NCBI GenBank assembly: GCA_951406725.2
Contig: OX597823.1
Span: 77,252,001-77,316,000, forward strand
DNA length: 64,000 nt
Direction: 5' to 3'
Source of the DNA: Octopus vulgaris
Lineage: Eukaryota
This document shows positions 19,413 to 56,779 of this stretch, piece after piece; position 1 is the stretch's first letter; each line of letters opens with the position of its first letter. The position numbers and the translations under genes were made by a program. Below the pieces are notes generated by a model, which did no database searches, was not told the DNA's origin, and was given only the letters and a program-made list of their open reading frames with translations.

Positions 19413-20094
19413 AATTAACCTTACAATTGTATTTTTTCACTTATTTGCTTCTTATTCAATATTCACCTTTAACACCATGTTAAAGATTGTATACAGATTG
19501 TAATTCATGACCTGCCTATGTCCACCATCCATGAATACCACTGGTCTCTCTCTCTCTTTCTCTCTTATTCTTTGATATCTCTATGATTACATTCTTCCAT
19601 CTCATTTCCTTATCTTTGGGGTGTAGTCTCACGCATTTCTTATTATTCTTTGTCGATTTACTTTTCTCTCAATGCTTCCTGTTACTTCACATATCATGTG
19701 ATCCAACTTTCTCTTTTGCTTCCTCTGTGTGTGTATATGTGTTTGTGTGGGTATGTGTGTGTGTGCATGTGTGTATAGATAGATATATATGTGTGTGTGT
19801 GTATATATATACACACATATATATGTGTGTGCATGTATATATATATATATATGTATACCAACATGCACATATAATTTATGCATATACATACATATATATA
19901 TGTATATATATACGAATGCATATATATATGAATGTATAAGTATGTATTTGTATACATATGCATATGTCTTATACACACCCAAACATGTTTGTGTTCTCTC
20001 ACCTACACTTTCTCTCACATACAAAGCACAATGCTCCCTCTCTCTGTTTCTTATACAATCTCTTTGTCACTGGCCTTTACTCTCTTACTCTCTC

Positions 20095-20135
<41 letters not shown>

Positions 20136-20519
20136 CTCTCATTCTGATCTGTTCTTTGGTTACGCTTCTCTTTCATACTTTTACATTCCAGCTTTCACTT
20201 CCTTATTAACTTCTGCTCCAGGAAGGATGTGAATCCCAACATGGTGAATTTAACACAACTAAGAAAAGAATCTGACTGAAATAAAGTTAATATGGAACAA
20301 AGAAACTTCCAAATTGATTTTATTCCAACTTTGGTATCGGAGACAAACAAATATCAATAAAGACAATGTCTATATTTGAAGAGGAACGTGACTCTTAAAA
20401 TAGCCAGATTACTTTGGAAGATGTTTAAGAGGAAAGAGGTGGGTGGGGTTTAAAGAATAAATGTAACCATAAACAGAAGAAAGAAGGTTGTAATACTAAC
20501 AGATAGTATTTTTGTCTTC

Positions 20520-21390
20520 TAGTACATGGCTGGTGTCATGTAATAAGCATCAATGTTGGTGCCATGTAAAAAGCATCCATGTGAGTGCCACATCAAAAAC
20601 ACCCATGCTGGTAACATAAAAACCATCCATGTGAGTGCAACATAAAAACACCCATGCTGGTGACACATAAAAAGTATCCTTGTGTCACATAAAAAAGCAC
20701 CCATGTAGGTACCATATAAAAAGCACCTATCTCAGTGCCAGTGCCACATATTAATCACAAGAGCTGGTGCCATGCAAAAAGCATCCATGTGAGTAACATA
20801 TAAAAAGCATCCATGTGAGTTCCACATAAGAAACACCCATGCTGGTGACACATAAAAACCATCCATGTGAGTTCCACATAAAAACACCCATGCTGGTGAC
20901 ACATAAAAACCATCCATGTGAGTGACACATAAAAACCATCTATGTGAGTGCCACATAAAAAACACCCATGGCGGTAAAACATAAAAAGTATCCATGGTAG
21001 TGCCACAAAAAAAGAACATCCATGCTGGTGACACATAAAAACTATCCATGTGAGTCCCACATAAAAAAACACTCATGCTGGTGACACAAAAAGTACCCAT
21101 ACCAGCATCACATAAAGAGCACCCATGTTGGTACCACACAAAAAGCACCTATCCTGGCATTAGGGATACAGCACCTGTGCCAGTACCATGTATAAATCAC
21201 AAGGGCTGGTGCATTGTAAAAAAGTACCCAGTACACTCAGCAAAGTAGTTGACGGTGTTAGGAAAAACATTCAGTAACTGAAACCATGCCAAAAGAGACA
21301 ATTGAAGTTCTGGTTGGCCAGCACCTTTCAAACCATCCAATCAAATCCACTGTGGAAAAACAGACATTAAAATATGATGATGATGATGAA
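20520..21390 (+). mobile_element. RTE-type 3'UTR with expanded ~25-bp minisatellite and (GAT)n tail
   Basis: Array of CACATAAAAACACCCATGCTGGTGA / CACATAAAAACCATCCATGTGAGTTC units followed by a degenerate RTE terminus and ATGATGATG. Confidence 0.75.
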
Positions 21391-21504
21391 TACCTAAATC
21401 AGTCTTGATCTTTGGCAAATATGGAAGAGTAAGGAATAAGGAAAATATGCTCAAGTAAGTCTGCAAGTCTATCTTGAATGAGCGAATTTCAAAAACACAT
21501 ATTT

Positions 21505-21714
21505 TTGTCCTTTTACATGTTTCAGTCATTTTGACTGTGGCCATGCTGGAGCACTGCCTTTATAGTCAAGCAAATTGACCCCAAGACTTATTCTTTGTAA
21601 GCCTAGTACTTATTCTATCGGTCTCTTTTGCTAAACCGCTAAGTTATGTGGACGTAAACATACCACCATCGGTTGTCAAGCGATGTTGGCAGGGACAAAC
21701 ACACACAAACATAT

Positions 21715-21749
<35 letters not shown>

Positions 21750-21920
21750 CATATACACGACAGGCTTCTTTCAGTTTCTGTCTACCAAATCCACTCACAA
21801 GGCTTTTGTCGACCCAAGGCTATAGTAGACGACACTTACCCAAGGTGGCATGCAGTGGGAATGAACCCAGAACCATGTGGTTGGTAAGCAAGCTACTTAC
21901 GATACAGCCACTCCTGCGCC
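21505..21920 (-). mobile_element. SINE-A copy (extra fragment to about 21985)
   Basis: Reverse complement match. Confidence 0.85.
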
Positions 21921-22911
21921 ACTCACAAGGCTTTGGTTGGGTTGACACTGTAGTAGAAGACACTTGCCCAAGGTGCCACGCATGTTGAAATTCTGGAAAT
22001 GGAGTCAGGAATCGTATTCCATGGGATCGTAAAGTAAAAAATTTGCAATTTGCAAACCAAAGGACTCATTCCCATTAGAAACCAGAAACCAACCATAAAC
22101 AACCAGTAAGTATTAAATGAGTCCCAGCTATCATTGTATCTACTCCTAACAGTCAAAGTATATCTCAGTACTTGATCCTAGCTCTTTCCTGTATGCATAT
22201 CACAACAGCTCTTTGGCATTGTTAGCCAGTGGAACATAATTCACAGCCTAAGTGTCCACACTTCAGCATACATGGTTTTCTTTTATGTCACCTAACATTG
22301 AATATATTTTCTTATCTGTTTTTCTGAACCATTTGTGAAGCCGTATTTTACCTGAAATATCAGGACCTTTAAATATTTTTTGAATTTTTCTTCCTCGCAT
22401 TATTAATGTTTAATTCCAATCTTGTTGGTAGAGTTATAGAAGTGTGAATTTAATCAAGACATGCAGAAGCTTTGCTATTATACACAAACATTCTGTCATG
22501 AGCAATGGTTTTATTATAGAGAGAGAATTGAAGTAGTGAGCTGGTAAAACTACTAGTACAACTTTTTACATTCTGAGTTCAATACCTGCCAAGGTCAACT
22601 TTAGGGGTCGATAAAACAAAATACTGGTTATCAATGCAATCAACTAACATCCTCTCCCTACTATTGTTGGCCTTGTGCCAAAATTTGAAACCATTATTAT
22701 ATACAGTGAATTACTATTGCTTTCTAGACAGCTTATCATCATAGGGACACAATAAATTTTCTTCATTGATTTAACATCTCAAAGCTTGTTACTTTTTCTG
22801 TATCTTTTTCTCCCCAAACCCTCAAAATATCTTAAATTCAAGATAACAAAACACTCACTAATTTCACATAACACCTTATTTACAAAAAATACATTATCTT
22901 GACAGATTAAT

Positions 22912-23380
22912 TTAATCCTTTAGTATTTAAGGCGGTGAGCTAGCAGAAACGTTAGCATGCTGGGCGAAATGCTTAGCGGTATTTAATCTGCTGCTACATT
23001 CTGAGTTCAAATTCCGCCAAGGTCGACTTTGCCTTTCATCCTTTCAGGGTCGATTAAATAAGCACCAGTTACACACTGGGGTCGATATAATCGACTTAAT
23101 CCATTTGTCTGTCCTTGTTTGTCCTCTCTGTGTTTAGCCCCTTGTAGGTAGTAAAGAAATAGGTATTTAAACTAGTCATATCCAGTCAAAATATTTACCC
23201 TTTTTTAATGCTAAAACTGGCCAGATCCAGCCTCTCACACCTACCCTTCAATGTCATTCTAAAAATAAACAATCATATCACTTAAATCTCAGAGATACAA
23301 GGTAATGTATGATTAATTCAAAACAATGTGAGTAAATAAGCATAACATTTGACAGAGTAATCTGAATGCTTTAGGGTTAA
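22912..23380. mobile_element. piggyBac-like MITE interrupted by SINE-B
   Basis: Ends TTAATCCTTTAGTATTT ... GAATGCTTTAGGGTTAA; second copy at 50998-51633. Confidence 0.7.
22931..23168 (+). mobile_element. SINE-B full copy
   Basis: tRNA-like head GGCGGTGAGCTAGCAGAAACGTTAGC...GAGTTCAAATTCC, conserved core and tail GTTTAGCCCCTTGTAGGTAGTAAAGAAATAGG. Confidence 0.85.
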
Positions 23381-23419
23381 ACTATTGAAGAAAATGCTTG
23401 AGGCATTTTGTTACAGCTC

Positions 23420-23970
23420 ATCATCATCATCATTATCATCATTTAACGTCCGTTTTCCATGCTAGCATGGGTTGGACGGTTCAACCGGGGTCTGGGAAGC
23501 CAGGAGGCTGCACCAGGCACCAGTCTGATCTGGCAGTGTTTCTACAGCTGGATGCCCTTCCTAACACCAACCACTCCATGAGTGTAGTGGGTGCTTTTTA
23601 CGTGCCACCGGCACAGGTGCCAGGGGAGGCTGGCAATGGTCACGATCGGTTGGTGCTTTTTACGTGCCACTAGCACAGAAGCCAGTCAAGGTGGTGCTGG
23701 CACCAACCACGTACGGATGGTGCTTTTTAGGTGCCATGGTAGACTGGCAACAGCCACGATCGGTTGGTGCTTTTTACATGCCACCGGCACGGAAGCCAGT
23801 CAAGGCAGCGCTGGCATTGGCCACATACGGATGGTGCATTTTAGGGGCCACTGACACGGAAGCCAGCCAAGGCGGCGCTGGCATCAGCCACATACGGACG
23901 GTGCTTTTTAGGTGCCAGGGTAGGCTGGCAATGGCCACGATCGGTTGGTGCTTTTGACATGCCACCAGCA
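23420..23970 (-). mobile_element. RTE 3'UTR fragment with ~60-bp repeats
   Basis: Starts with (CAT)n TTTAACGTCCGTTTTCCATGCTAGCATGGG, the reverse complement of the RTE terminus. Confidence 0.85.
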
Positions 23971-24889
23971 CTTTACAATATTCTGACTTCACAGCTGTTG
24001 AAGTCAACTATGTCTCTCATCCTTCTTGGGTTGATCAAATAAAACAAAGTTCTTGTAAAGTAATGTAGTCTTATAAATATTTCTATCAACCAGCAAAGAC
24101 ATAAATAGAATTAAAAACGGGGACTAAGAATAACATGCATACATGGTACCTTATTTATAATGATGTGAACAATGTCAGCGAGAATTAAGTGTTTTGACTG
24201 AATAACACTACAGAGTGCAAGTTAATAAGATATGAATCATTAGCAGATGGACATCCTATCAAATGTTTAGATTTGGCAATATGCTGCTGTAGTGGGTTAA
24301 TCATAAAGATTGCAATATATATGCAGTAAATGATGTCATGTAGGATCGTGGTGTAGGAATTTGAACATCTGTCTAAGAGCAATGTAATTACCTGCCAATC
24401 ATATGAGCAAATGCACATGTTTCTTATTCATACATGTATGTGTGAGTGTTTGTGCACAAGTCTGGGTGTGTATCTACGTGTGTGTGCATGTGTACAGGTG
24501 CGCATGTCTGTGTGTATGTATATGTATGATTATATCTATACACGTGTTTGTATAAATACATGGCTGTATGAAGACAGAGGTTGACATGTTACCATATGGT
24601 CACAAGTTACATCACTTCTGTTGCAGAGAGATAGAACTTGTAAGTTAAATTAGTAGACAGAAACTGTATGGAAGCCCATCATGCACATGTATAGAGGACC
24701 CAATACGGTTCAATAATTGATTAAAGCTGTTGCTCATTTTATTTTAAATCTATGAATTTAAAAAAAGGGGCAAATTTAGCAATCGTTAAATTTGCACTAT
24801 TGGTATCCTATATGGTAAATTTTTCCAGAGCAAATTTACCATGTAGGATACAGATATAGGCGCAGGAGTGGCTGTGTGGCAAGTAGTTT

Positions 24890-25162
24890 CCAGAGGTGAA
24901 TCATTCAAACCCCAAAGAATCCCTCTCAGCACATGGCTATGATGCTCCCCCACTACTTCTGCTCATGATCAGAGATGCACATATCGTCTGCCACTAAGGG
25001 ATATGCTCAACTGGTTAAGGTCAAACAAGTGAGAAGCAAATCTGTGGTATTGAGCAGAATATTTGCTGTAGCCCATCTTTTATACCAAGACAAAACAATG
25101 TACATGATAACACTTCCAATCAGTTAAGATCAAAAGACATGAGAGCCTCTGCCTGGTACTGC

Positions 25163-25198
<36 letters not shown>

Positions 25199-25203
25199 CA
25201 TTA
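24890..25203. repeat. Unclassified probable interspersed repeat adjoining (TTA)n
   Basis: Follows a truncated SINE-A head (24858-24888) and ends in (ATT)n; no second copy in the window. Confidence 0.4.
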
Positions 25204-25216
25204 CAACTTTAGTTAA

Positions 25217-25440
25217 GGCGGCAAATTACCAGAATTACTAATAGACTGGGCAAAACACTTAGAGATATTTTCGTCCATCTTTATGTTCTGGGTTCAAATT
25301 CTGCCTAGGTCAACTTTCCCTTTCACCCTACGTGGTGGGGAGGATCCATAAAATAAGTATAAGTTGAGAATTGGGGTCGATGATATGGACTTACCCTTTC
25401 CCCTAAAATTGGTAGCCCTGTTCTAAAATTTGAAACCATC
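25217..25440 (+). mobile_element. SINE-B diverged copy
   Basis: Head and core similarity. Confidence 0.7.
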
Positions 25441-25859
25441 ATTACCTTAGTTATTTACCAGAAGCAAGGTAGAAATACTAGTTTTAAAATTCAAATGTTG
25501 TGGTGGTGATGGTGGTGGGGTCTTAATAAAAGATACCTGAAATGCAAGAGTAATATAATTTAACTGCATGTAAAATGATCAGTTCTGAATGCAATTGGAA
25601 AGACAAATTTTTATGGCAGATTTGAAAGAAATCAATGTTACTTAGAAACCAAAACTACATCCCCAACAGTAAAATTCCCGATAACATATCAAAATATTTC
25701 ACAAAATATTAGTAACATAGTAACATCTTTTAATTCTCCAGTTTTAGCAAATTCTAATTAAATTTAGTACAATGGTCTTATTTTTATTTCCAATATTTAT
25801 TCATTTTATATTTTTCTATGCATTTTATTTTTTATTGTTGTTACTATTATTATTATTAC

Positions 25860-25905
<46 letters not shown>

Positions 25906-26364
25906 TTATTATAATTATTATTTTATTTATTTATTGTTTTGCTGTCTTAAATTCTTAATTCAAATGCTAATTGTCTTTTGAAGTGAAATGAACTTAACCA
26001 AACACGAAATTTTTGTTTGTTTTTCTAGCTTTAATCTTCTGTTTGTGAAATTTCACTCTCCACCTGCTAAAATGCATAATTAATTGCATTTTATGATGAC
26101 TATTTACACAAAGGCGAAGCCATGCCAACAGTTTGTTGTCAGATTAAAATGAATAAGATGCAAAATAAATCTTCTTTTACAAATTCTTCTTTACAGAATT
26201 TTCAGGTTTAAACTCCTGGCCTAGACAGAAATTTTGATGAACAGTTGAACAATGGCTTCAAATTAATTGCTGCTATACAATTTTAAAGCAGCAACAAAGA
26301 GGAATTACACACACACATACACAGATCAACTTATAGATAAATAGATAGATATGCCTATGCAACA

Positions 26365-26928
26365 TGATATATATATATGTACATGCATATATATATGCAC
26401 ATGTTTATATATGTATATATATATACATGTGCATATATATATATACATATATATATGTATATGTATATATATACATATACATATATATATGTATATATAT
26501 ATGTATATATATATGTACATGTATATATATACATATATATATGCATGTATATATATATATATATGTATATGTATATATATACATATACATATATATATGT
26601 ATATATATATATATGTACATGTATATATATACATATATATATGCATGTATATATATATATATATATGTATATGTATATATATACATATACATATATATAT
26701 GTATATATATATGTACATGTATATATATACATATATATATGCATGTATATATATATATATGTACATGTATATATATATATACATATATACATGTACATGT
26801 ATATATATGTATATATGTATATGTATATTTATATATATTTATATATATACATATATATACATATATATATATTTATATATATACATTTATATGTATTCAT
26901 ATATACACATATATATGTATATATATGT

Positions 26929-26964
<36 letters not shown>

Positions 26965-26985
26965 ATATATATATATATATGTATA
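26365..26985. repeat. TA-based higher-order microsatellite (~98-bp period)
   Basis: GTACATGTAT landmarks recur at about 26516, 26615 and 26712. Confidence 0.8.
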
Positions 26986-27299
26986 AATTTAATTAGAGGA
27001 TATGTTATCCTCATAAAGGAAAGCTTGCATCCAAGGAAATACTGGTTCAATACCTAGTATTGTTAAGGAGTGAAATTCCCTTAAAACAATAGATATATAT
27101 TAAGCATGTAGCTGATATCCATTTAAAAGAAGAAAAGAAAATGGAGACAAGGAAGTTAATAATTAATTGATAACTTCCTTATCTCTATTTCCTTTTCTTC
27201 TTTTAACTTCCAGAGGCAAGCTGTGAAATTTGTTGTTGGAGGTAACTGGGGTATTTTTACGTATGTGTGGCTTTGTGTTTTGCTTTCTTGTGGGTATCT

Positions 27300-27690
27300 T
27301 TACTCTTTTACTTGTTTCAGTCATTTGACTGTGGCCATGCTGGAGCACTGCCTTTAGTTGAGCAAATCGACCCCAGGACTTATTTTTTGTAAGCCTAAGT
27401 ACTTATTCTATCGGTTCCTTTTTGCCGAACCACTAAGTTACAGGGATGTAAACACACCAGCATCGATTGTCAAGTGATGTTGGGGGGACAAACACAGACA
27501 CACAAACATATACACACACATACATAAATATATATATACATATATGCATCGGGCTTTTTCAGTTCCTGTCTACCAAATCCACTCACAAGGCTATAGTAGA
27601 AGACACTTGCCCAAGGTACCACACAGTGGGACTGAACCCGGAACCATGTGGTTCGTAAGCAAGCTACTTACCACACAGCCACTCCTACGC
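27300..27690 (-). mobile_element. SINE-A copy
   Basis: Reverse complement match. Confidence 0.85.
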
Positions 27691-28014
27691 TTGTTTAAAC
27701 ATCTCATGTGTAAATATCTCACTTATTTCCTGTATGTGCACTCTGCTGAAGAAGGAAAAGCCATTGGGCAAATCCAGAAATTAGCTAATCCAGGACTATC
27801 TATATTGTTATTAATTTCTGTTAGCTTGCTGCTTTGATTTCATCACATATGTAACTTTGTGACTTTTAAAGTGGTGAGACGATTTAGCATCTACTTTCAG
27901 CATATAGGCTAGAAAATTTCTTTCTTTGCCCTTAATTATAATTATATATAAGTTTGTGTGAGTGCATCTATCTATATATGTGTGAGAATGTGTATGTGTA
28001 ACTTGTACTCTGTC

Positions 28015-28320
28015 AGTTATGACCACAAGGGATCCAATCAATCCAGTCTCTGGAACAGTCTGCTCATGAAATTAACATGCAAGTGATTGAGCACTCCACA
28101 TACATGCCTAACCATAACGTAGTCCTTAGGGAGATTCAGCATGACACAGAGTGTGGCATGGCTGGCTCCCTTTGAATTACAAGTGCAACTCATTTTTGCC
28201 AGCTGAGTGAACTGAAGCAACATGAAATAAAGTGTCTTGCTCAAGGATACAGCACACTTCCAGGAATCAAACACATGACCTTATAGTTGTTAGCCAAACA
28301 CCCTAACCCATAAGCCACAT
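28015..28320 (-). mobile_element. SINE-E head with SINE-D-type tail
   Basis: tRNA-like head, CCTTGAGCAAGACACTTTATTTCA core; the 3' half matches 16500-16687. Confidence 0.7.
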
Positions 28321-30006
28321 ATATATGCATGTGTGTGCATAGGCTCAACTCTCCCCTCCCCTCTCCTCTCTTCCTCTCACGCCTACTTCCTCCCACCCAC
28401 CCCTCCTCTCCTCTAATGGACAGATATATCCAAAGGCACTTCTGTTAATTACCTCAGTAGGTATATTCCTTGGTAAAAAGGTATATGGCAGCAGGTAATG
28501 TAGTGGGTAACCGTAGTTTAACTTATACAGACAAGAAGAAAATGGAGGAAAAATAACAAACAGAAGTGTCTTTTGTGCTATTAAGCCATTATTTAATTAG
28601 TAAATAAAGGTGATATATATGTATATACATGTGTGTGTGTGTAAACTACTTTTCTTAGAAATACTGTACTGCACTATGTAACAATGATTCCTTGTTGTAA
28701 GTGCATACTCAAACAATGACAGAGCATAGTACTTGTATGACCAATGTCACAGTTTGATTCACAAAATTAACAATCTTTATGTTTGCACTGGAATTTTTTA
28801 ATTATATTGGAAGTTTGTGATACATTCTAAATTTTTTTTAGCTTGTGCTGTTTTATAATAAGAAGTTTCTTCATTCTGGTGTTTTTGTAATATATTCTAA
28901 GAGGGAATTTTTGGCTAGATGTGATACTGACTTGGTCATAGCATGATTTTAAAATTCAATGTTGGAAAAACGAAAAAGATCACCTGCACTTCTTATGATC
29001 CTTTGCGACACATCATTCTGCTAACATTTTATTCTGAGAATTCTGTGGTGATAGCTTCAGAATTTTAATGGACTAATGGATGTAGGAATGCTAATAATCT
29101 ATGCTGAATGTACAAGACATATAAGAAAATTAAAATTTTTCTTAATAATGTTTCAAATTTTCACACAAGGCCAACAAGCTTGGGTGAGGAAATAAGTCAA
29201 TTACTTAGACCCCAGTTTTCAACTGGTACATATTTTATCGACCCCAAAAGAGGTGAAAAGCAAAGTAACCCATGGTAGAATTTGAACCCCGGACACAAAG
29301 ACAGATGAACTGTTGCTAAGCATTTCGACTCATTTCTAACAACCCTGCCAATTTTCCACCTTATTCTTCTTAATCCTGACCACACATGAAAATGGCCATA
29401 TCTTTATTACATATTTGAAAGAGAGTTGTTCCCAATCTACATAAATACATACATATATACATATATGAATGTTGTATGTGAGAAAGCGAGAGAAGTGTTG
29501 TGGTCCTTGTTTAAAAAAAGAGTGCTCAACTATATAAATAGCAATAATTTATAATCCTTTGTACTAAAGGCAGAAAGGCAAAGTTGACCTCAGTAAAATT
29601 TGAACTCAGAACACAAGAACAGATGAAATGCTACTAAGTATTTCATCCAGAGTGCTTAAGGTTCTGCCAGCTCACTGTCTTGCAAGCATTTGTAATATAA
29701 TTTAGTGATGATCATACCATCAATTACACATGACTCCCAGTTTTTAACATGTTTGAAAGAATATGCTCATTAAGATTTTCATGAATTAAGGGTCAGTAGA
29801 TTCTATACCAAAAGACACCCTCACACCCTCACACACACACACACACACACATAATGTAAAATAAGATAAAATCTTTATGAGAATTTATCAAGTAGTCAGC
29901 GTGAAAACCTCATAAGGGAAAAATTTATAATTATATAAATATATTTCTTTAATTTATAAAATATTATATTTATATTTATATTTAAATATATATATATATA
30001 TTTATA

Positions 30007-30563
30007 TTAAGGGCATTACTACACGTAAATGACTCATGTTATGAGGGACTCTTGAAGTCAAAACTACCATAATAAATGATAATATTTATTATGGTAGTAC
30101 ATTTAAATATTTGTTGTGCAAGATTTTTTATGTGAAGTCGTGTGTTGAAACAGATATTGTTATATTTGAATGGTCATATTGCCAGTTTAGCCAATAAAAA
30201 CACACGCACTATATATTTGGTGTTATTTTGCTTCAGTGTTATTTATTTTTTACATTAATCTTAATCTTATTTTGGCCAGAGTTCTTTCGTCACACTCCTG
30301 TGACCGCATTAAGTAAGAAGAAAACAAAGGACCACTGATGCGGTCACAGGAGTGTGACGAAAGAACTCTGGCCAAAATAAGATTAAGATTAATGTAAAAA
30401 TAAATAACACTGAAGCAAAATAACACCAAATATATAGTGTGTGTGTTTTTATTGGCTAAACTGGCAATATGACCATTCCGAAATATAACAATATTTATTA
30501 TGGTAGTTTTGACTTTAAGAATCCTTCATAGCATGAGGCATTTATGTGCAGTAATACTCTTAA
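30007..30563. repeat. Nested palindrome; inner arms 30154-30309 / 30338-30494 carry a hammerhead-like motif (HH family 3)
   Basis: Near-perfect inner inverted repeat with a 28-nt spacer, diverged outer arms, and an 18-bp direct repeat at 30081-30098 / 30490-30507. Confidence 0.9.
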
Positions 30564-30829
30564 TATATATATGTGTGTGTGTGTTGGGATTATTCCAGTT
30601 TCCCTTTGCCAAATATACTCACAAGGCTTTTGTTGACCTGAGGCTATAGCAGGAGACACTCAACTAAGGTGCCATGCAGTGGGACTGAACCCAGAACCAT
30701 GTGCTTGGACAGCAAGCATTTTAACACACAATCACACCTGCTCATACTTTCAACTGAAGATTTTGAGCAGGGACACCGATGGACTGAAGCGAATATATAT
30801 TAGTATGAGTAAATGCATAAATGAGATGC

Positions 30830-30868
<39 letters not shown>

Positions 30869-31264
30869 GAAAGGGAAAGAGAGAGAGAGAAAGACCAAAG
30901 GAGAAAGAAAAATAGAATTTGGTGTGACAAAGTGATGCATAAGTGATGCTTTGTCCTACTAACATGCTCACTCAAATGCTACTCTATTGCAGCTTCCAAT
31001 CTCCCTACATTTCCATTCTTGGGCCAAATCTAGTATGTGCCATGCACTCCTTGGACTGGAATTTCATTTATTCTTGCCCCTACACTGAGCTGCATCCATG
31101 TCACTCTGCAAAATGTGTTAACAATTTCTTAAGAAACAGTGATGCTGCTTCAATTCAGGCAAATATGTGTGTGTGCATGCACATGTACACACATGTATAT
31201 GTACTTATGCACACATACACACATGAATACACATATCATATAATTTGTATGTATATATATATGT

Positions 31265-31304
<40 letters not shown>

Positions 31305-31306
<2 letters not shown>

Positions 31307-31692
31307 ACTCTTTTACTCTCTCTCTCTCTCTTTTGACTGTGACCATGCTGGAGCACCACCTTTAGTCAAGCAAATTGACCCCAGGACTTATTCTTTGTAA
31401 GCCTAGTGCTATTCTATCGGTCCCATTTGCTGAACTGCTGAGTTACGGGGATGTAAACATACCAGCATCGGTTGTCAAGTGATGTTGGAGGGCGGACAAA
31501 CACAGACACGCAAACATATACATATATATATATATATACACACACGACAGGCTTCTTTCAGTTTCCATCTACCAAATCCACTCACAAGACTTTGGTCAGC
31601 CCGAGGCTATAGTAGAAGACACTTGCCCAAGGTGCCACACAGTGGGATTGAACCCGGAACCATGTAGTTGGTAAGCAAGCTACTTATCACAT
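31305..31692 (-). mobile_element. SINE-A copy
   Basis: Reverse complement match. Confidence 0.85.
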
Positions 31693-31819
31693 ATATGGAA
31701 AATGCCTTGTAATATATTTAGGAAGACTATAGTTCGAATGATTATTCAATGCAGAATTATATAGTGATATGTGTGTGTGTGTGTGTGTTTGTGTGTGGAT
31801 GATTGTAGGGGTGGGGGGT

Positions 31820-32310
31820 GTACTTCTGCATCCAGCACATTCATTTCTTCAATGATTTATAGAACTTGACATCAAACAGTTTTCGCAAAGATTCAAGGCC
31901 GGCAGCTATCACAATTTATGTTGTGATTTCAGCTTGACATTCTTTTCCCTTTTTACCTGTCTTCTCTACACACAACACGTCATTCTCATGCAAGCAGCGA
32001 TTTCATCTTTAGGAGGGTACCTGGTCTCTTATTCTCCCGTCATTCATCCAACCCCTGGGATGACAATGAACCAAAACTCCAAATGGCATTTTTCTATCTC
32101 TTTGGAAATCCTCTCCTCTTAAATATCACTGCTGGCTTGAGCTTAGTCCCATCTGTTACACACACAATTACGACAGTAAAATGTATCCTTTTATCTCCTG
32201 TGATCCTCACATGAATAGACTTCCTTCCTTTGATACGAAATGCATGGTTTCTTGGGAGATCAAATAACGCAGGAGCTTCACTGATATTACCAACATTCAA
32301 AAAATAAACA
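31820..32310 (-). mobile_element. pogo/Tigger-type transposase remnant (DDE_1 region)
   Basis: NVGNISEAPALFDLP...KGRKSIHVRITGDKRIHFTVVIVCVTDGTKLKPAVIFK resembles the pogo 'NMDETP..FDMP...TGHEK..FTV.L.C.ADG.KL.P..IFK' motif. Confidence 0.8.
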
Positions 32311-32357
32311 GGTGAGATAAAATTATCTTCTATGTCACATGGTAGTTCCTACGATGA

Positions 32358-32406
32358 TATTATTATTGTCAAGTTATTATTATTATTATTATCATCATCA
32401 TCACCA

Positions 32407-32441
<35 letters not shown>

Positions 32442-32478
32442 ATTATTATTATTATTATTATTATCACTTCTGTTTTTA

Positions 32479-32522
<44 letters not shown>

Positions 32523-32565
32523 TTTACTTTTACTTTTATTATTATTATTATCATCATCATCATCA

Positions 32566-32600
<35 letters not shown>

Positions 32601-32620
32601 GTTATTATTATTATTATTAT
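32358..32620. repeat. (ATT)n/(ATC)n microsatellite
   Basis: Directly visible. Confidence 0.95.
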
Positions 32621-32839
32621 TCTTTTGTTATAGACTGAGTTAATTTTTCTCCCCAAAACTACAGGTCTGTCCATTAGAAACTTTATATGATGGTCTCGGA
32701 ACTATCTTGTTTGCCTACAATATCATCTGAAATGGAGTTATGATGTAGATGTAGTTACCACTCCTATGTTCAGTGGTGAATGTATTTAACAGTTCTTTGT
32801 CCATCTCTGGATCTAGAACTTGCTTGTTTGCCTCTAGGT

Positions 32840-33115
32840 CAGAGTTTCATGAAAGAATTAGTAATAAAGGGGATTTAATGGAAAACTGGGCATAAGATTA
32901 ATCGAATGTTGTGTGCAAGAAAGAATACTGCACTAATATGAAAAACTGATGTGTAAGGATGAGAACAATAGTATACAGAAGAACCAATTGCTGGGTGCAG
33001 CTGGAACTTGTGGAAGAGGGAGAACCAAGAAGGAATGGGATTAAACAAACAAGGTTGACCTCTGGACCCTGAACCTGAGAGAGATGACAAAGGACCAGGA
33101 CTTCTGGTGATATGA
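32840..33115 (+). mobile_element. Very old RTE ORF C-terminal remnant
   Basis: AGTCGRGRTKKEWD...DLWTLNL..EMTKDQDFW is similar to the end of ORF 41666-42676. Confidence 0.65.
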
Positions 33116-34121
33116 GGTTTCTAAGAGACCCCCTCTCATCAGTGAAATTGAGTTTAAAAAGTTTTATGTGTTGTGCTCTCCACCCAGGTTACAATGACTT
33201 GTCTCCCACTCTGATGTGTTAGGCTTGCATCTTCTCCCCACCTGACTCCTGTAGAGCACCTGACTGCATCATCCCTCTCTATTATTCACCCCCTGACAAC
33301 CGATCATCTTTACTATTCCTTTTCTATACCTCTACCACCCTCCTCTGCATTCCTCCATCTCCCCTAATTCATGGCTCCTTGTTCATCCACCCCTCAACCC
33401 TACCCATTTAGGCAATCTCCTTCCCATCCCCTCATTCTCTGTCCCTTACAATCTTGCAGACCAATTCTTCAACTCACCTTGTGTCTTGAGGGACCACCTA
33501 AGCACCTAAGCACCAAAATCTATCTCCTGCAGCTCCTATTCATCATCATCTCTTCTTCTCCTTTCTCCAACTAGATGTGAGTAGCCATGCAGATCCTCTG
33601 CAAGAACCTGTTTTGTCACTTCAACTCCTTCTCATAGTTTAATCCCCTCATTCTCAAGAATGAAGCTGACACTCCCCTCCCAGCTTTTGTACTTCTGTGG
33701 GATGTATGTCAACATCAATAGTGCACCCAGTTCAGGTCATAAAAGTGGTTGGTATCCTGCCAGAGAAAAACCATGCCAAAGCAAACATTGGAATACAATG
33801 CAGTCCTTAGACACATCAGATTCTGTCAAAAGTCCAATCCATGCCAGCATGGAACACAAATGTTAAGTGGTGCTGGTGGTGATGGTGATGATGACGATGA
33901 TGGTGATGATGACGATGATGATGATGATGATGATGATGTGATGGTGATGATGGTGGTGGTGGTAGTGATGATGATGATGAGGAGGAGGAGGAGGTGGTGG
34001 TGGAGAAGGAGGTGGTGGAGGAGGAGGAGGAGTATGTGCATCCTTTTTCTCCTCTATTTCAAATCCAAACTTCTAATAACTCCAAATATTATAAAGAAAT
34101 GATTACCCCCACCTTGTGATA

Positions 34122-35419: not shown

Positions 35420-35660
35420 TACGTAAAAAGCACCAACCAATTGTGGCCGTTTGCCAGCCTCCTCTGGCCCCTTGTGCCAGTGGCACATAAAAAGCACCCA
35501 CTACACTACACAGTGGTTGGCATTAGGAAGGGCATCCAGCTGTAGAAAAACTGCCAGATCAGACTGGAGCCTGGCACAGCCTCCTGGCTTCCCTGACCCC
35601 AGTCAAACCGTCCAACCCATGCTAGCACAGAAAACGGATGTTAAACGATGATGATGATGA
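35420..35660 (+). mobile_element. RTE 3' end with (GAT)n tail
   Basis: Matches 43400-43616. Confidence 0.85.
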
Positions 35661-35661
35661 A

Positions 35662-36680
35662 GTATCAGTCCTCATCCTCCTCTTGTTCACCATAGTCCTC
35701 CAGGTAACAACAGAGAACTTTAAGTCAAGCTGCCCCTGGGAGTTCCTCTATGCTGATCACTTTGATCTTGTGGCTGAATCACTATCAGAACTAGAGAAGA
35801 AATTTCAGGTGTGGAATCAAGGTTTAGAATCAAAGGGCCTTAAAGTTAATTTAGCAAAAACCAAAGTCTTGGTAAGTAGGAAAGCAGATAAATCACAAAT
35901 TCCTTCAGGTAGATGGCCCTGTTCAGTATGGAGAAAATGTGTTGGTGGAAACTCCTTAAGATGTAACCAGTACAAGCTATGGACATATGAGGTGCAGCAG
36001 TATCAGAGGAAGGTTAACAAGGAAAATAGTCTTTGTGTGTGGCAGCTGTACAGGTACAATAAACACTAGAAATGTGCAGAAAACAGACCCCTTCAAATGC
36101 CAGGGGGATACCTAGAAGTAGTTGATAGCTTCCATTACCTAGATGACCAAGTCAGCAGCAGAGGTTGGTGCTCCAAGAGCATAGCTGCTAGAATAAGAAT
36201 GGGCTGAGCAAAGTTCAGAGAGCTTCTACTTTTGTTGGTAACCAAGGGCCTCTTCCTCAGAGTGAAAGGAAGATTGTATGCTGTCTGTGTGTTAACAGTC
36301 ATGCTACACAGCAGTGAAATACGGGCTGTGACCGCTGAGGACATGCATAGGCTTGAAAGAAATGAGGATGGTATGCTGGACGTGCAATGTCAGTGTGCAT
36401 TCGCGACAGAGTGTAACTGTCCTGAGAGAAAAATTGGGCATAAAAGTCATCATATGTAGTGTGCAAGAGAGACAACTGCACTTACCAAGTGATGCATATG
36501 AACAAGGACAGCTGTGTAAAGAAATGCCAACCCCTAACTTTGGAAGGAACGTGTGGAAGAGGCAGACCTAGAAAGACAAGGTGGTGAAATATGATCTTCG
36601 AACATTAGGCCTCACAGAGGTGATGATAAGTGACTGAGACATTTGGCAATATGCCGTGCTTGAGAAGACTCATCAATCTA
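35662..36680 (+). mobile_element. Decayed RTE LINE RT fragment
   Basis: SVLILLLFTIVLQ...PWEFLYADHFDLVAESLSELEKKFQVW...VNLAKTKVL; paralog of 41733-42676 with frameshifts. Confidence 0.9.
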
Positions 36681-36718: not shown

Positions 36719-37620
36719 TCAGGTCATTAACAATGAAATGTCCGATTTTGAACTGAAAGTTTATTTTACTTTATCTCAACAAATAGCAATGCAGTTAATC
36801 AAAGAATGCATTAAATTATCAACACAATTTTGCCATTTTATTGGTAGCTTATTTATGTTGGCAGCGAAGAATTCTAGAGAGCAAGAGATGATGAAATCGT
36901 GAAAGGTTGTTTTTACATCTTTTTCAGATTTGAAGTTTTTCCTTTGCAAAAAAGTTGTCTAATGGCTGGAAAAGGTGATAGTCAGTGTAATGTCTGGTGA
37001 ATATGGTGGATGACAGAGTACTTCCACGTTCAGTTCCTGTAACTTGAGTAGTATTCTTTTGTGCAACATGTGGTCGAGTATTGTCTTGCAAGAGAATTGG
37101 CCTCTCTCTATTGACTAATCTCGGTTGTTTAATTGCAAGTTCACTCATTATTTCATCCAACTGGTTGATGTATACATCTGCTGTAATTGACCTGCCAAGT
37201 CTTATGAAGTTGTAGTAGATGACATCAGCGCCGGACCACAAAACAGACACCATTACCTTTTTTGGTGTATATTCTTTCTTGGATTGTGTTTTGGCACTTT
37301 GTCTCTATCCAAGCACTGTGTAGAGCACTTACTATTGTTAAAAAGAAACCATTTTTCATCGCCCATAACAATACGATGCAAAAATGGTTTGCTTTTATGC
37401 CATGACAGCAAAGAACAGCAAATTTCAAGATGACGTGTCATTTGATGCTTGATCAGTTCATGTGGTATCCACTTACCCAGCTTCTTTACCTTGCCAATTT
37501 GTTTCAGATGGTCCAATACAGTTGGAGTCGAAACATAAAACCTTGCTGCTAACTCACATGTAGTTTGAGATGTATCTGCTTCCACTACAGATTCCAGCTA
37601 ATCCTTATCCACCTTGGTCT
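36719..37620 (-). mobile_element. mariner transposase remnant with one probable TIR
   Basis: KKLGKWIPHEL, FLHRIVMGDEKW, PILLQDNTRPHVA and TDYHLFQPLDNFF (D,D34D type); frameshifted. Confidence 0.92.
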
Positions 37621-41237: not shown

Positions 41238-41732
41238 ATATGTAATAGAAAAACGTTGCCTGACCAATGAAATTAAGCAGTGATATATGTGTCAGTTATG
41301 AATTTTATTTCATAAATTATTTCCAACTTCAAAATGTCAAATGATGATTCAAAGATTTGTAAGAGTCATTAAATTCATGAGCAATATCATGAATAATAAA
41401 GGTAAGATATTAAATCACCAGCAACATTTCCGATAATGAAAACACAAAACAGATATAAATTCGGGATTGTAAAATGTCAGTATTACCTAGAAACCAATAT
41501 CTCATTATAATGTATCCACTGTTTGTTTTATCATATTTAGTAAAAATTAATTTTCAATAGGTTTTAGAATTTGCTGCACAATTTACAATGGAACTTTCAA
41601 TCAAAATAGACGAAGTCGACAGAATTAATTTAAAACTAAATATATTCAAATCTGAACATTGATTTATGCATTTTACACACACACACACACACATATATGT
41701 ATATACATTCTCACAGGTTTTTTTTTTTTTTA

Positions 41733-42676
41733 CTCTTGCTCTAATTGCTGAGTCACTATCAGAACTGGAGGAGAAGTTTCAGGTGTGGAAACAAGGATTA
41801 GAATCAAAGGGCCTTAGAATCAACCTAGCCAAAACCAAAGTCTTAATAAGTAGGAAGGTGGACCAATCACAAACGACTTCAGGTAGATGGCCCTGCTCGA
41901 TCTGTAAAAAAGGTGTAGGTAGAAACTCTATAAGGTGCACCAAGTGTAAGCTATGGACACATAAGAGGTGCAGCAATGTCAAAGGAAGGCTAACTAAGAA
42001 AATAGTTTTTGTCTGTGGCAGATGCTCAGGAGCAATAAACACTGGAAATGTGCAGAGACCAACTTCTACCACGTTCCAGGGAGACAAACTAGAAGTCGTT
42101 GATAGCTTCCGCTACCTAGGAGACCAAGTCAGTAGCAGTGGTGGGTGTACTGAAAGTGTAACTGCTAGAGTAAGAATAGCCTGGGCAAAGTTTAGAGAGC
42201 TCTTACCCCTGCTGGTGACAAAAGGCCTCTCGCTAAGAGTAAAAGGCAGACTGTATGATGCATGTGTATGTACAGCCATGCTACATGGTAGTGAAACATG
42301 GGCCGTGACTGCTGAGGATATGCGTAAGCTCGCAAGAAATGAAGCCAGTATGCTCCGATGGATGTGTAATGTCAGTGTTCATAATCGTCAGAGTGTAAGT
42401 ACTTTGACAGAAAAGTTGAACCTAAGAAGCGTCAGTTGTGGTGTGCAAGAGAGACGGCTGCGCTGGTATGGTCATGTGACGAGAATGGCTGAAGATAGTT
42501 GTGTGCAAAAGTGCTACACCCTAGCAGTTGAGGGAACCTGTGGAAGAGGTAGACCCAGGAAAACCTGGGACGAGGTAGTGAAGCACGACCTTCGAACTTT
42601 AGGTCTCACCAAGGAAATGACTAGAGACCGAGTCCTATGGAAGTGTGCTGTGCATGAGAGGACCCGGCAGGACTAG
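41733..42676 (+). pseudogene. Truncated RTE reverse transcriptase ORF with PHD-like insert
   Basis: From ORF track 41666..42676; the first ~22 aa are microsatellite/poly-T and are not part of the element. Confidence 0.9.
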
Positions 42677-43616: not shown

Positions 43617-43745
43617 CCTTTCTGTTGAAGAGTGTAGGCTCGAAACATCTAAGACTAATCCATTCTTCCTGAGTATTAAACTAATACACCTGCTTGTTAT
43701 TTCTACACCTCTCTTCATCTTTTGCTTTCTGTAAATTTGAACTAT
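43617..43745 (+). mobile_element. HH family 2-related fragment with hammerhead-like motif
   Basis: 43618-43653 CTTT-CTGTTGA-A-GAGT-GTAG-GCTC-GAAAC-ATC-TAAG; ends AACTATATA like the copy at 7150. Confidence 0.6.
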
Positions 43746-45176: not shown

Positions 45177-45658
45177 ATTGATTCCGAACAATATTTGAAG
45201 AAGAAACAACCAACGTTATTTCTTCTTTAAGTATAAGTTTGAAAACTGAGTCAATGGAGAGAAGTCACAACTAGATGAAATCTCCAATGTTCAATGCACA
45301 ATTCACTGATATCCGAGCAGCTAAAATTTGACAGCAGAAAGACACTTAGAAATAGAGTGTAGGAAGTTAAGACCTGAACCATCTGCCTGAGCGGGTTTCT
45401 TCTTTGAAGCCTTTCCTACTATTCAAACTCTCTTGAGAGTCTCTGACCACTACAACGTCACAGATTTTTGTTGTGGTGGATTATTTTGACCTTGCTCTTT
45501 CAATGTCATTTTATGTTATTGAATTGAGGAGAATGAAAATGATGTTGACTTCAACAAAACTTGAACTCTAACTGTCAAGTGATTTAGCTATGTTAATTTC
45601 TTCCTTCGCTGTTTTTTTTTTCCTTAACCAATTTTGTCCCAAACAAGACTTGAGACAA

Positions 45659-45850
45659 TACAGTTCTATATTTAAGAGATGAGGAATTATGTACATTATC
45701 TACATTATTTACATTTGATGGCTATTTCTCCTCATCTTGTTTGTTGTTAACACAACGTTTCAGCACTGATATACCCTCCAACCTTCATCAGGTGTCTTAG
45801 GGAACCTGGGTTCTCATTCCTGAGGTATTTTTCAGTGTTATTATTATTAA
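45659..45850 (-). mobile_element. HH family 1 element (hammerhead-like motif at 45749-45796)
   Basis: Minus strand GACAC-CTGATGA-A-GGTTG...-GAAAC-GTT-GTGTT; adjacent to (AAT)n. Confidence 0.75.
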
Positions 45851-45904
45851 GAGTGCAGGCTACTAACCTCAAGATTCTGAGTTCAGTTCTAGGCAGTGAT
45901 CTGT

Positions 45905-45939: not shown

Positions 45940-46099
45940 AACAACAACACCGAAAAATACATTAAGAATGAGAACCCAGGTTCGAAATTTCTCCAAGACA
46001 CTTGATGAAGGCTGGAGGGTACATCGGCACAGAAATGTTGTGTTAACAACAAATAAGATGAAGACAAATGCCCGTCAAATGTAAATAATGTAAATAATG
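45940..46099 (+). mobile_element. HH family 1 element (motif at 45997-46044)
   Basis: GACAC-TTGATGA-A-GGCTG...GAAAT-GTT-GTGTT; preceded by (AAT)n(AAC)n. Confidence 0.75.
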
Positions 46100-46363
46100 A
46101 AGGCTTGAGACTATTGTAGCTTAGGGGACTAGAGAGAAAGAAAAAATGGGACCTACAAATTCAAGATCTCTTCAAACAAGCAAGGCAGGATGTTGCCAAA
46201 GTGATGCTCCAGAATGGCAATTCAGCCACCAAAGCTATCGCTTCGCATGCAGACACAATAGGTGGACTGCATGTGCTAAGATAAGGCATGCACCTTGAGA
46301 GCTGTCCTACTTGTTTACCCCTGAGTGGTTTCACGTGCCAGTGAAGGCTGTGCTAGTGAAGGT

Positions 46364-51345: not shown

Positions 51346-51633
51346 CATATATATGACAGGATTCTTTCAGACTCCGTCTACCAAATCCACACACAAGGCT
51401 TTGGTCGGCCTGAGGCTATAGTAGAAGACACTTGCCCAAGGTGACACACAGTGGAACTGAACCCAGAACCATGTGGTTGGTAAGCAAGCTATTTACCACA
51501 CAGGCACACCTGTTTATTTTTAGAATAACATTGTAGGGTAGGTGTGAGAGGCCAAATTTGGCCAGTTTGAACATAAAAAGGTTGAATATTTGAGTCAGAT
51601 ATGGAGATATGGTCAGTTTGAATGCTAAAGAGC
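50998..51633. mobile_element. piggyBac-like MITE interrupted by SINE-A (51108-51512, minus)
   Basis: Flanks are the reverse complement of 23170-23380. Confidence 0.75.
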
Positions 51634-56275: not shown

Positions 56276-56387
56276 TTCTAATGTTGTTGTTGTTGGTGAT
56301 GGTAGTGGTAGTAGTGTTTAGTCACAGGCATGCTTGATGCAACAAGTTTTTAATCAAATACACTCCACCCATACCAATCTCATTTCT

Positions 56388-56424
<37 letters not shown>

Positions 56425-56427
<3 letters not shown>

Positions 56428-56617
56428 CAACAACATCGAAAAATACCTTAGGAACAAGAACCCAGGTTCGAAATTTCCCCAAGACACCTGATGAAGGCTG
56501 GAGGGTATATCAGCCAAAACGTTGTGTTAACAACAAACAAGACGAGGACAAATATCTGTCAAATGTAAATAAAGTAAATAATGTACATAATTCCTCATCT
56601 CTTAAATATAGAACTGT
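56425..56617 (+). mobile_element. HH family 1 element (motif at 56483-56528)
   Basis: GACAC-CTGATGA-A-GGCTG-GAGGGTATAT-CAGCC-AAAAC-GTT-GTGTT; preceded by (AAT)n(AAC)n. Confidence 0.8.
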
Positions 56618-56779
56618 CATTTATTTTTATTTTGATGTATAGAGTATCTTCTAGATGTATAGAGTATCTTCTAGATGTATATTATGCACCAAGCACCTAC
56701 ATTAGAGGGTTTTTCAGTGCTACTGAGGAGCTCCAACAGACCGAAATTACATGATGTGGAAATTCCCACATCCTTCAAA

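What the first reader, a model, noticed from the sequence alone, without database searches (positions are those of the whole stretch)
56425..56617. ~190-bp (AAT)n-associated repeat carrying a minimal hammerhead ribozyme motif (HH family 1; three copies)
Seen: three copies (56425-56617 +, 45940-46099 +, 45659-45850 -). Their consensus is GACAC-CTGATGA-A-GGCTG-loop-CAGCC-GAAAC-GTT-GTGTT, and each is preceded by (AAT)n/(AAC)n. This gives stem I (GACAC/GTGTT), the CUGAUGA core, stem II (GGCTG/CAGCC) and GAAA. Stem III is reduced to the palindrome ACGU before the putative cleavage nucleotide. Established: Penelope-like pLTRs and retrozymes carry minimal type-I hammerheads with a palindromic stem III that can work as dimers. 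Inference: this is a non-coding, microsatellite-targeted ribozyme retroelement mobilised by Penelope-like proteins. Each genomic copy has a different lesion (AAAAC for GAAAC; TTGATGA and GAAAT; a disturbed stem II), so only the consensus may be active.
Basis: partly seen in the sequence, partly recalled or inferred. Interest (0 to 1): 0.8.

Follow-up and report, generated by a model that had tools for sequence, protein, structure and literature searches.

The report
Hammerhead-bearing, Penelope-mobilised octopus SINE-like repeat
A very abundant short repeat, likely from an octopus genome, carries a minimal hammerhead ribozyme motif (self-cleavage predicted, not shown) and the insertion marks of Penelope-like jumping genes, and it likely begins with a tRNA-derived promoter head, which would make it a SINE-like element moved by Penelope proteins instead of by a LINE.

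Summary
The three copies and their lesions are real. Contigs of three DNA runs under three organism codes (15,083-33,132 contigs each) show a majority sequence with a complete minimal type-I hammerhead: G12 is intact in 80-91% of depth, and N7 is the only core base with a frequent non-CpG variant. That motif class in Penelope-like pLTRs has been known since 2014. 'Microsatellite-targeted' is not supported: (AAT)n lies inside the target-site duplications. Copies 2 and 3 form one head-to-head insertion inside a 15-bp TSD, with a 34-nt tail on one arm only, which is the Penelope signature. The 55-bp 'spacer' is a tRNA-like head fragment joined to (AAT)n and the body; a second, independent locus (P0002) shows the same head-linker-body and inverted tail. 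Best reading: a non-autonomous, probably Pol III-driven SINE-like element built on a Penelope 3' end. Cleavage, an A box and the partner element were not shown. Earlier scan notes hold no copy of this element, only one loosely similar idea. Repbase, Dfam and the original octopus SINE papers could not be checked.

The parts
56380..56389 (+). Left target-site duplication of copy 1 (about 10 bp)
   Evidence: 9 of 10 identical to 56617-56626; null 17 of 6,000 random junction pairs at slack 1
56390..56434 (+). Internal (AAT)11(AAC)4 linker of copy 1; the 5' truncation point lies here
   Evidence: lies inside the TSD
56435..56617 (+). Body of copy 1, pLTR-like 3' part
   Evidence: sharp 3' end at 56614-56617 in contigs of three DNA runs
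56483..56528 (+). Minimal type-I hammerhead: stem I 56483-87/56524-28, core C3-A9 56488-94, extra A 56495, stem II 56496-500/56511-15, G12 56516 (A in this copy), ACGU palindrome 56519-22, predicted cut after 56523
   Evidence: descriptor hit on the majority sequence; letter shares; same layout as Fig. S3 of PMC4209133
56521..56534 (+). Predicted competing hairpin that hides the cut site and the 3' strand of stem I
   Evidence: pair probability 0.89-0.91 against 0.06-0.07 for stem I in the folded majority unit; also in the MFE folds of c1 and c3
56584..56617 (+). 34-nt optional 3' tail (present in c1 and c3, absent in c2)
   Evidence: a shorter end class also shows among contigs
56617..56626 (+). 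Right target-site duplication of copy 1
45645..45659 (+). Left 15-bp target-site duplication of the inverted pair
   Evidence: 13 of 15 identical to 46100-46114 at zero slack; null 2 of 20,000
45660..45849 (-). Copy 3: inverted, tail-bearing arm with a short (AAT)n; hammerhead at 45749-45796
45850..45904 (+). tRNA-like head fragment (anticodon arm, variable loop, T arm with a worn B-box-like stretch at 45880-45890); cut 3' of where an A box would lie
   Evidence: class I tRNA invariant spacing at 45860, 340 of 200,000 shuffles; blastn E 0.002 to a tRNA-SINE head at 51454-51482; same head before (AAT)n and body in P0002
45905..45948 (+). (AAT)8/(AAC)n linker of copy 2
45949..46099 (+). Copy 2: direct arm without the tail; hammerhead at 45997-46044
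46100..46114 (+). Right 15-bp target-site duplication of the inverted pair

Best explanation
This is a high-copy, non-coding repeat made of a tRNA-like head, an internal (AAT)n(AAC)m linker and a roughly 180-nt body that holds a minimal hammerhead motif and an optional 34-nt tail; it is likely transcribed from the head by RNA polymerase III and likely pasted in by the reverse transcriptase/GIY-YIG endonuclease of an autonomous Penelope-like element. Inferred cycle: the nuclease nicks AT-rich DNA (3' junctions begin ATT) on the two strands 10-15 nt apart. Reverse transcription starts inside uncut RNA, 60 or 94 nt 3' of the hammerhead cut site. The cDNA usually stops and is joined in the (AAT)n linker, probably by microhomology. 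When both nicks are extended, a head-to-head pair results with the tail on one arm. The hammerhead is inherited from the pLTR, is predicted to be off in the monomer and to need dimer formation or protein help, and does not make the ends of the inserted copies. Step odds: Penelope-type insertion about 0.85; real hammerhead lineage about 0.9; head is a fixed part of a non-autonomous family about 0.55.
For: Shown: majority sequence has a full minimal hammerhead, 0 of 200,000 by chance. In three DNA runs the only frequent non-CpG changes in 56483-56528 fall at N7 (U>A up to 15.5%, U>C up to 43.7%) and in loop II. A 15-bp TSD brackets c3+head+c2, and no TSD fits c2 or c3 alone. c2 and c3 share a 2-nt insertion, read CA in one and TG in the other (the two decay products of CG), which is not listed at >=5% genome-wide. 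The tail is on one arm only. The 3' end is sharp, with unrelated AT-rich flanks: 721, 748 and 591 loose ends at 56614-17 in the rows shown; a shorter end class has 98 and 85. tRNA spacing in the head, 340 of 200,000 shuffles; the same pattern hits 12 places in the window, 10 of them heads of a common tRNA-SINE. P0002, 1 of 3 hits among 1.84 billion representatives, reads inverted tail, head, poly-N, body, and carries non-c2 states at four tested codons, so it is a second event. Known: inverted pLTRs, a 31-bp optional tail and 8-10-bp TSDs (PMC3846280; PMC8557442); ATT cutting, extension of both strands, internal RT starts 85-92 nt past the hammerhead cut, and a protein-assisted, dispensable hammerhead in PAc (PMC11167929).
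Against: The head is seen at only two loci, both cut short; one is known only through a predicted protein. No A box was seen (best match 4 mismatches) and the c2 B box has 3-4 mismatches; ARAGORN and Rfam see no tRNA there. Three word-based protein searches found no further head-linked copy. No autonomous partner was found: the broken Penelope-like ORF at about 4390-6560 carries a different terminal repeat with no significant match (best E 0.17). No compensatory stem change was seen at >=5%. Stem I is predicted to lose to a competing hairpin. No cleavage or RNA-end data: no raw-read run was offered. Capture of unrelated DNA between solo pLTRs is a known alternative.
Confidence: 0.55

Rival explanations
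1. The unit is simply the 3' pLTR end of an autonomous Penelope-like element; the copies are heavily 5'-truncated insertions, and the tRNA-like piece is part of its 3' UTR or was captured from a source locus.
For: Most minimal hammerheads in animal genomes are single motifs thought to come from truncated PLEs. All insertion marks are of Penelope type. One frame is open from an ATG through the 3' end, as where pLTRs overlap the ORF start. Penelope-like elements make up 6.83% of O. vulgaris. Capture between solo pLTRs is described.
Against: All four copies seen (c1, c2, c3, P0002) stop within about 55 nt upstream of the linker. The same head precedes bodies of two subtypes. The open-frame search returned only a host gene model, no PLE protein (1 hit among 8 candidates, weak evidence).
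Confidence: 0.3
2. One reading: a microsatellite-targeted, retrozyme-like RNA that is cut by its hammerhead, circularised and inserted into (AAT)n arrays.
For: All three copies abut (AAT)n. 3' junctions begin ATT, so AAT arrays would be good nicking substrates. Non-LTR retrozymes are PLE derivatives and often monomeric.
Against: (AAT)n lies inside the TSDs and on one side only; the pair's target is unique sequence. Copy ends lie 60-94 nt past the cut site, not at it. There is no head-to-tail array in the window, and back-joints in contigs have depth of about 60-240 against millions (rows at the repeat were dropped by the tool). Eleven other (AAT)>=4 runs in the window, in four arrays, carry no copy.
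Confidence: 0.07
3. Read on the other strand, it is an ordinary LINE-mobilised SINE with a 3' (ATT)n tail; the hammerhead is an antisense relic.
For: A fixed end opposite a variable simple repeat inside a TSD is classic SINE anatomy and fits c1 alone.
Against: In the pair both TSD-adjacent ends are the non-repeat ends, which priming from an (ATT)n tail cannot give. The tRNA-like head reads in the hammerhead's sense and joins the (AAT)n side. N7-restricted variation fits selection on the hammerhead strand.
Confidence: 0.06

Closest known systems
Minimal hammerheads in pLTRs of metazoan Penelope-like elements (Cervera and de la Pena 2014, PMC4209133)
   Same: Core, extra base between 9 and 10.1, G10.1-C11.1 pair, long helix II, short helix I, palindromic 15.2-16.2 (the C-G-U-U ending of many Fig. 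S3 rows); dispersed single motifs; pairs 100-700 bp apart on opposite strands.
   Different: No cephalopod row among the 56 motifs of Fig. S3. Here no ORF is linked, and a tRNA-like head with an (AAT)n linker sits upstream.
PAc, Poseidon-clade PLE of Anolis (Frangieh et al. 2024, PMC11167929), and Adineta Penelope copies (PMC3846280)
   Same: ATT-rich nicks, two 3' ends about 30-35 nt apart, ends about 60-94 nt past the hammerhead cut, inverted copy, short TSD.
   Different: Those are autonomous, with an RT-EN ORF overlapping the pLTR; none was found for this family.
SMalpha/Sjalpha SINE-like elements of schistosomes (from review PMC6765202 and PMC8490949)
   Same: Pol III-type promoter followed by a type-I hammerhead in a short non-coding retroposon.
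   Different: Those are described as tandem, cut out of multimers by an active hammerhead; no Penelope tail, inverted pair or PLE partner is mentioned in the passages seen. This element is dispersed, has a minimal motif and is inserted uncut.
Non-LTR retrozymes (PMC7229834; bioRxiv 10.64898/2026.07.22.740005)
   Same: Short, non-coding, type-I hammerhead, proposed to depend on PLE proteins; monomers are dispersed.
   Different: Defined by head-to-tail tandem units, mostly canonical hammerheads, and circular RNA; none shown here. No tRNA head is mentioned in the parts read.
tRNA-derived SINEs (definition in PMC8969392; octopus SINEs of Ohshima and Okada 1994, seen only as a reference title)
   Same: tRNA-like head, short body, TSDs, very high copy number, heavy 5' truncation.
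   Different: SINEs rely on LINEs and are primed at a 3' simple-repeat tail; here the simple repeat is internal and the primed end is a Penelope-type end. Whether this family is one of the named octopus SINEs could not be checked.

Membership tests
Minimal type-I hammerhead (PLE type) | CUGANGA and GAAAN-U-H core | tested here: met
   Majority letters in three DNA runs and one probable RNA run; G12 79.6/86.0/91.4/91.5%. Each window copy is broken.
Minimal type-I hammerhead (PLE type) | Helix I, helix II with G10.1-C11.1, extra base after A9, palindrome at 15.2-16.2 | tested here: met
   Descriptor hit; stem II pair probability 0.96
Minimal type-I hammerhead (PLE type) | Compensatory changes in the stems | tested here: inconclusive
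   No stem variant at >=5% other than CpG decay, so nothing for or against
Minimal type-I hammerhead (PLE type) | Self-cleavage, as a dimer or with protein | not testable with these tools
   Only contigs were available; folding predicts stem I is out-competed
Penelope-like element insertion | Inverted 5'-truncated copy, head to head, inside one TSD | tested here: met
   second case read from P0002
Penelope-like element insertion | Optional 30-40-nt tail at one end | tested here: met
   34 nt in c3 and c1, absent in c2; two end classes in contigs
Autonomous Penelope-like element | RT plus GIY-YIG ORF next to the pLTR | tested here: inconclusive
   None linked in the window or in protein searches; no whole genome was held
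tRNA-derived SINE | tRNA-like head with B box | tested here: met
   Invariant spacing 340 of 200,000; P0002 codons are compatible with a better B box; worn in c2 and missed by ARAGORN and Rfam
tRNA-derived SINE | A box 30-35 nt upstream of the B box | tested here: inconclusive
   The only head copy in the window is cut before it
tRNA-derived SINE | 3' simple-repeat tail and mobilisation by a LINE | tested here: not met
   The simple repeat is internal; the TSD-adjacent ends are Penelope-type ends
tRNA-derived SINE | Pol III transcription | not testable with these tools
   No raw or stranded reads
Non-LTR retrozyme | Head-to-tail tandem units, each with a hammerhead | tested here: not met
   None in the window; only low-depth back-joints in contigs. 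Not tested on a whole assembly.
Non-LTR retrozyme | Circular RNA of unit length | not testable with these tools
   No suitable reads
Microsatellite-targeted PLE (Neptune/Naiad habit) | Insertion into a pre-existing microsatellite | tested here: not met
   (AAT)n inside the TSD in both events; unique 15-bp target

The most novel reading that the evidence does not exclude
A dispersed, tRNA-promoted SINE family that took its 3' end, with hammerhead and reverse-transcription start sites, from a Penelope-like element and spread to tens of thousands of copies across several related species with PLE proteins rather than a LINE. Its inverted pairs record priming from both target nicks, and its internal linker seeds (AAT)n microsatellites.
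Probability: 0.5. Interest if true: 0.7.

Novelty: new variant of a known kind. Interest (0 to 1): 0.5.

Why it matters
The hammerhead itself is an expected member of a class known since 2014. What would matter is the element's design: SINEs are defined as riding on LINEs, and the known PLE-dependent parasites are tandem retrozymes. A tRNA-headed element with a Penelope 3' end would add a third route and bridge schistosome SMalpha and retrozymes. With this many copies, open questions on Penelope biology become countable in one genome: how inverted ends and the optional tail arise (two-nick priming against self-priming on antisense RNA, the proposal in PMC3846280), and whether the hammerhead is under selection although cleavage is dispensable in vitro. 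It also warns that some octopus 'SINE' annotation may be Penelope-driven.

Tried and rejected
No whole genome was held, so the genome-wide consensus came from Logan contigs of 4 of the 24 runs listed. Rfam over the window returned 395 matches, the 150 shown all microRNA models on simple repeats; targeted scans showed no hammerhead or tRNA. Pattern scans found no copy of the family: metagenomes 0 and 117 chance 17-mer loci, none extending (best E 0.17); GTDB 0; viral contigs one unrelated phage motif and two chance 18-mers. Protein searches with the head-linker frames gave 0 of 14 and 0 of 7 candidates; the ESM Atlas gave no usable hit. P0003 and P0004 are poly-N chance hits. In run X22 one contig starts exactly at the predicted 3' cleavage product (56524) and depth rises there, but contigs cannot show RNA ends and table 6 was empty, so it is not counted. 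Summed depth (about 5 million on the unit, 46 on the flank in X1) suggests a very high copy number, but the tool says it is no copy number. The cofold MFE of two hammerheads (-31.2 kcal/mol) is not the active-like dimer (-24.3), and the model has no core energies, so it was not used. The broken Penelope-like ORF in the window was rejected as the partner; Pfam and PDB did not score its pieces. PMC4795812 and PMC5785218 were not held.

Full report
Observation. The three copies are real. blastn and a three-sequence nhmmer profile give three full hits (E 1e-50 to 1e-62) and nothing else under E 0.017 in the 64 kb. They are 80-90% identical pairwise and each has (AAT)n(AAC)m on its 5' side. The stated lesions are there. 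None of the three passes a minimal-hammerhead descriptor, and neither does any other place in the window. Rfam reports no hammerhead on these stretches. The host is probably an octopus: the only protein hit to one reading frame of the repeat is an Octopus sinensis gene model. No whole genome was held.

Family consensus. I laid contigs of 4 of the 24 listed runs on 56410-56650 at 80% likeness: 33,132 contigs from X1 (organism A; possibly the window's own sample), 27,528 from X8 (D), 15,083 from X9 (E) and 143 from X22 (A, RNA by guess). At G12, where copy 1 has A, G holds 79.6, 86.0, 91.4 and 91.5% of depth. With the majority letters put in, the unit has a full minimal type-I hammerhead: stem I 5 bp, CUGAUGA, one extra A, stem II 5-6 bp opening with G-C, GAAA, the ACGU palindrome and U17; 0 of 200,000 Markov resamples do. 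This matches the consensus and many rows of Fig. S3 in Cervera and de la Pena 2014, which has no cephalopod row. The frequent lesions are CpG decay at C11.1/G12 and C15.2/G16.2 (9-20% each in DNA runs). Inside the ribozyme only two non-CpG sites vary at >=5% in DNA runs: N7 (U>A 15.5/11.4/4.5%, U>C 0.5/10.1/43.7%) and one loop II base; nine such sites lie outside it. Both inside sites are free positions. That is modest support for selection on source copies. No compensatory stem change was seen. Folding gives stem II 0.96 but stem I 0.07, because a downstream hairpin (0.91) takes the cut site, so the monomer is predicted to be off.

Insertion anatomy. A 15-bp direct repeat (45645-59 and 46100-14, 13 of 15) brackets copy 3, the spacer and copy 2 with no slack; 2 of 20,000 random junction pairs score as well, and no TSD fits copy 2 or copy 3 alone (the unmasked null gave 27 of 3,000 at slack 3). 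Copies 2 and 3 share a 2-nt insertion in stem II, CA in one and TG in the other, that is not listed at >=5% in the contigs. They are one head-to-head event. Copy 3 has a 34-nt 3' extension that copy 2 lacks. Copy 1 has a weaker 10-bp TSD (9 of 10; 17 of 6,000) that encloses its (AAT)n. So the microsatellite belongs to the insert and is not the target. In the contigs the 3' end is sharp at 56614-17 (721, 748 and 591 loose ends in the rows shown; 776 further rows were not shown) and the flanks are unrelated AT-rich DNA whose consensus begins ATT; a shorter end class shows at 56572 (98 in X1, 85 in X9, no row shown for X8). Inverted 5'-truncated copies, a 30-40-nt tail on one end and 8-10-bp TSDs are the marks of Penelope-like elements. 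In the one PLE studied in vitro the nuclease prefers ATT, both strands are cut and extended, reverse transcription starts internally 85-92 nt past the hammerhead cut, the tail lies between two starts, and the hammerhead is protein-assisted and dispensable. The ends here lie 60 and 94 nt past the predicted cut.

The head. The 55-bp spacer lies inside the TSD, so it was copied with copy 2. It has the spacing of class I tRNA invariants from the anticodon loop to the T loop (340 of 200,000 shuffles; the pattern was chosen after seeing the sequence). The same pattern hits 12 places in the window: this one, 10 heads of a common SINE (three checked have A and B boxes 32 nt apart) and one apparent chance hit. 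blastn links it weakly to that SINE head (E 0.002). ARAGORN and Rfam do not call it, its B box is worn, and it is cut before any A box. A phmmer search of the frame running through head, linker and body against 1.84 billion representatives gave 3 hits, two of them poly-N noise. The third, P0002, matches the head at 7 of 11 residues, each difference one base away, then poly-N and the body. Directly before its head P0002 reads the reverse strand of the element's tail (8 of 13 residues; best matches in the window are the tails of copies 1 and 3). It carries the copy-1 subtype where copies 2 and 3 share another base, and lacks three changes of copy 2, so I read it as a second, independent head-to-head insertion with the same head. 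This rests on one predicted protein without its DNA. Three word-based searches found no more.

Mechanism. Shown: composite structure, TSDs, inverted pair, one-sided tail, intact majority hammerhead. Inferred: Pol III transcription from the head; binding of a Penelope/Poseidon-type RT-EN to the pLTR-derived 3' part; staggered nicks in AT-rich DNA; priming at one of two internal sites on uncut RNA; joining of the cDNA in the (AAT)n linker; extension of both nicks to give inverted pairs. A likely origin is a pLTR end inserted into the (AAT)n tail of a short tRNA-SINE, the chimera then spreading. The partner was not found. The broken Penelope-like ORF at about 4390-6560 (PF26215-like by the ESM Atlas; motifs recognised from recall) has its own, unrelated terminal repeats beside (TA)n. 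O. vulgaris has 30 recently active Penelope families, so candidates exist.

Rivals. Truncated 3' ends of an autonomous PLE (0.3) remain the main alternative, since capture of unrelated DNA between solo pLTRs is known. An opposite-strand LINE-driven SINE (0.06) cannot explain the pair.

What is known. The hammerhead is a new member of a known class. The closest whole element is schistosome SMalpha (Pol III promoter plus hammerhead, tandem); retrozymes are the known PLE-dependent parasites. Ten full-text searches showed no octopus hammerhead family and no tRNA-headed SINE assigned to a PLE. The library lacks most subscription papers; two wanted papers were not held; Repbase, Dfam and the Zenodo library were not seen; bioRxiv supplements were closed. 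The family may therefore already carry a SINE or Penelope name. Papers as seen: PMC4209133 parts 1-3 of 4 and supplement parts 1-2 of 3; bioRxiv 2026.07.22.740005 parts 1-3 of 5; PMC11167929 parts 1-2 of 4; PMC13282606 parts 1-2 of 3 and a supplement search; PMC8557442 passages and section 6; passages only for PMC3846280, PMC6765202, PMC8490949, PMC8969392, PMC7229834, PMC8967140, PMC6962438, PMC10294476 and PMC10886601. Earlier scan notes hold no look-alike of this element; one note describes a tRNA-bearing Penelope-type tandem repeat elsewhere, unchecked here.

Verdict. Observation confirmed, interpretation partly supported. New variant of a known kind; interest 0.5, and 0.7 if the tRNA-headed, Penelope-driven SINE reading holds (probability about 0.5).

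Noticed in passing
window 2099-2223(-), about 4390-6560(-), 6960-7086(+): A separate broken Penelope-like element: RT-like pieces, a PF26215-like domain, a CxxC linker and a GIY-YIG-like end, with two 74%-identical inverted repeats that each hold another CUGANGA...GAAA motif and run into (TA)n. A third worn member may lie near 43620-43660(+). Unrelated to the 190-bp unit.
   Followed up: partly
P0001/P0005/P0007 (O. sinensis LOC115224785): Gene models of a cysteine-rich, receptor-like membrane protein begin with 36 residues read from this repeat (N7=A type, intact GAAAC), ahead of a likely true start; the O. vulgaris counterpart P0006 lacks it. A hammerhead-bearing copy may sit in a 5' exon.
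   Followed up: partly
window 56519 and 56553 in run X22: A>G at A15.1 (8.6%, 3 contigs) and T>C at 56553 (7.6%, 7 contigs) appear in the probable RNA run but under 1% in DNA runs; this would fit A-to-I editing of sense and antisense copies, but needs DNA of the same animal.
   Followed up: no
window 56465-56475: A second B-box-like word (2 mismatches to the consensus) lies in the body, inside a small hairpin; copy 3 has an 8-nt deletion there.
   Followed up: no
window 587, 18449, 21887, 27658, 31674, 38066, 40891, 48858, 51483, 61488: Ten heads of a common tRNA-derived SINE; the three checked have A and B boxes 32 nt apart.
   Followed up: partly
window 15032-15748: Three tandem copies of a 239-bp unit at 98% identity, much younger-looking than other repeats.
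   Followed up: no
window 35626-36069, 41663-42676, 36924-37597: Fragments that look like an RTE-type LINE (with a PHD-like finger) and a mariner-like transposase; labels from recall.
   Followed up: no
L001 3303-3334(-): A phage contig holds a compact hammerhead-like motif with the same GAAACGUU ending; unrelated to this family.
   Followed up: no
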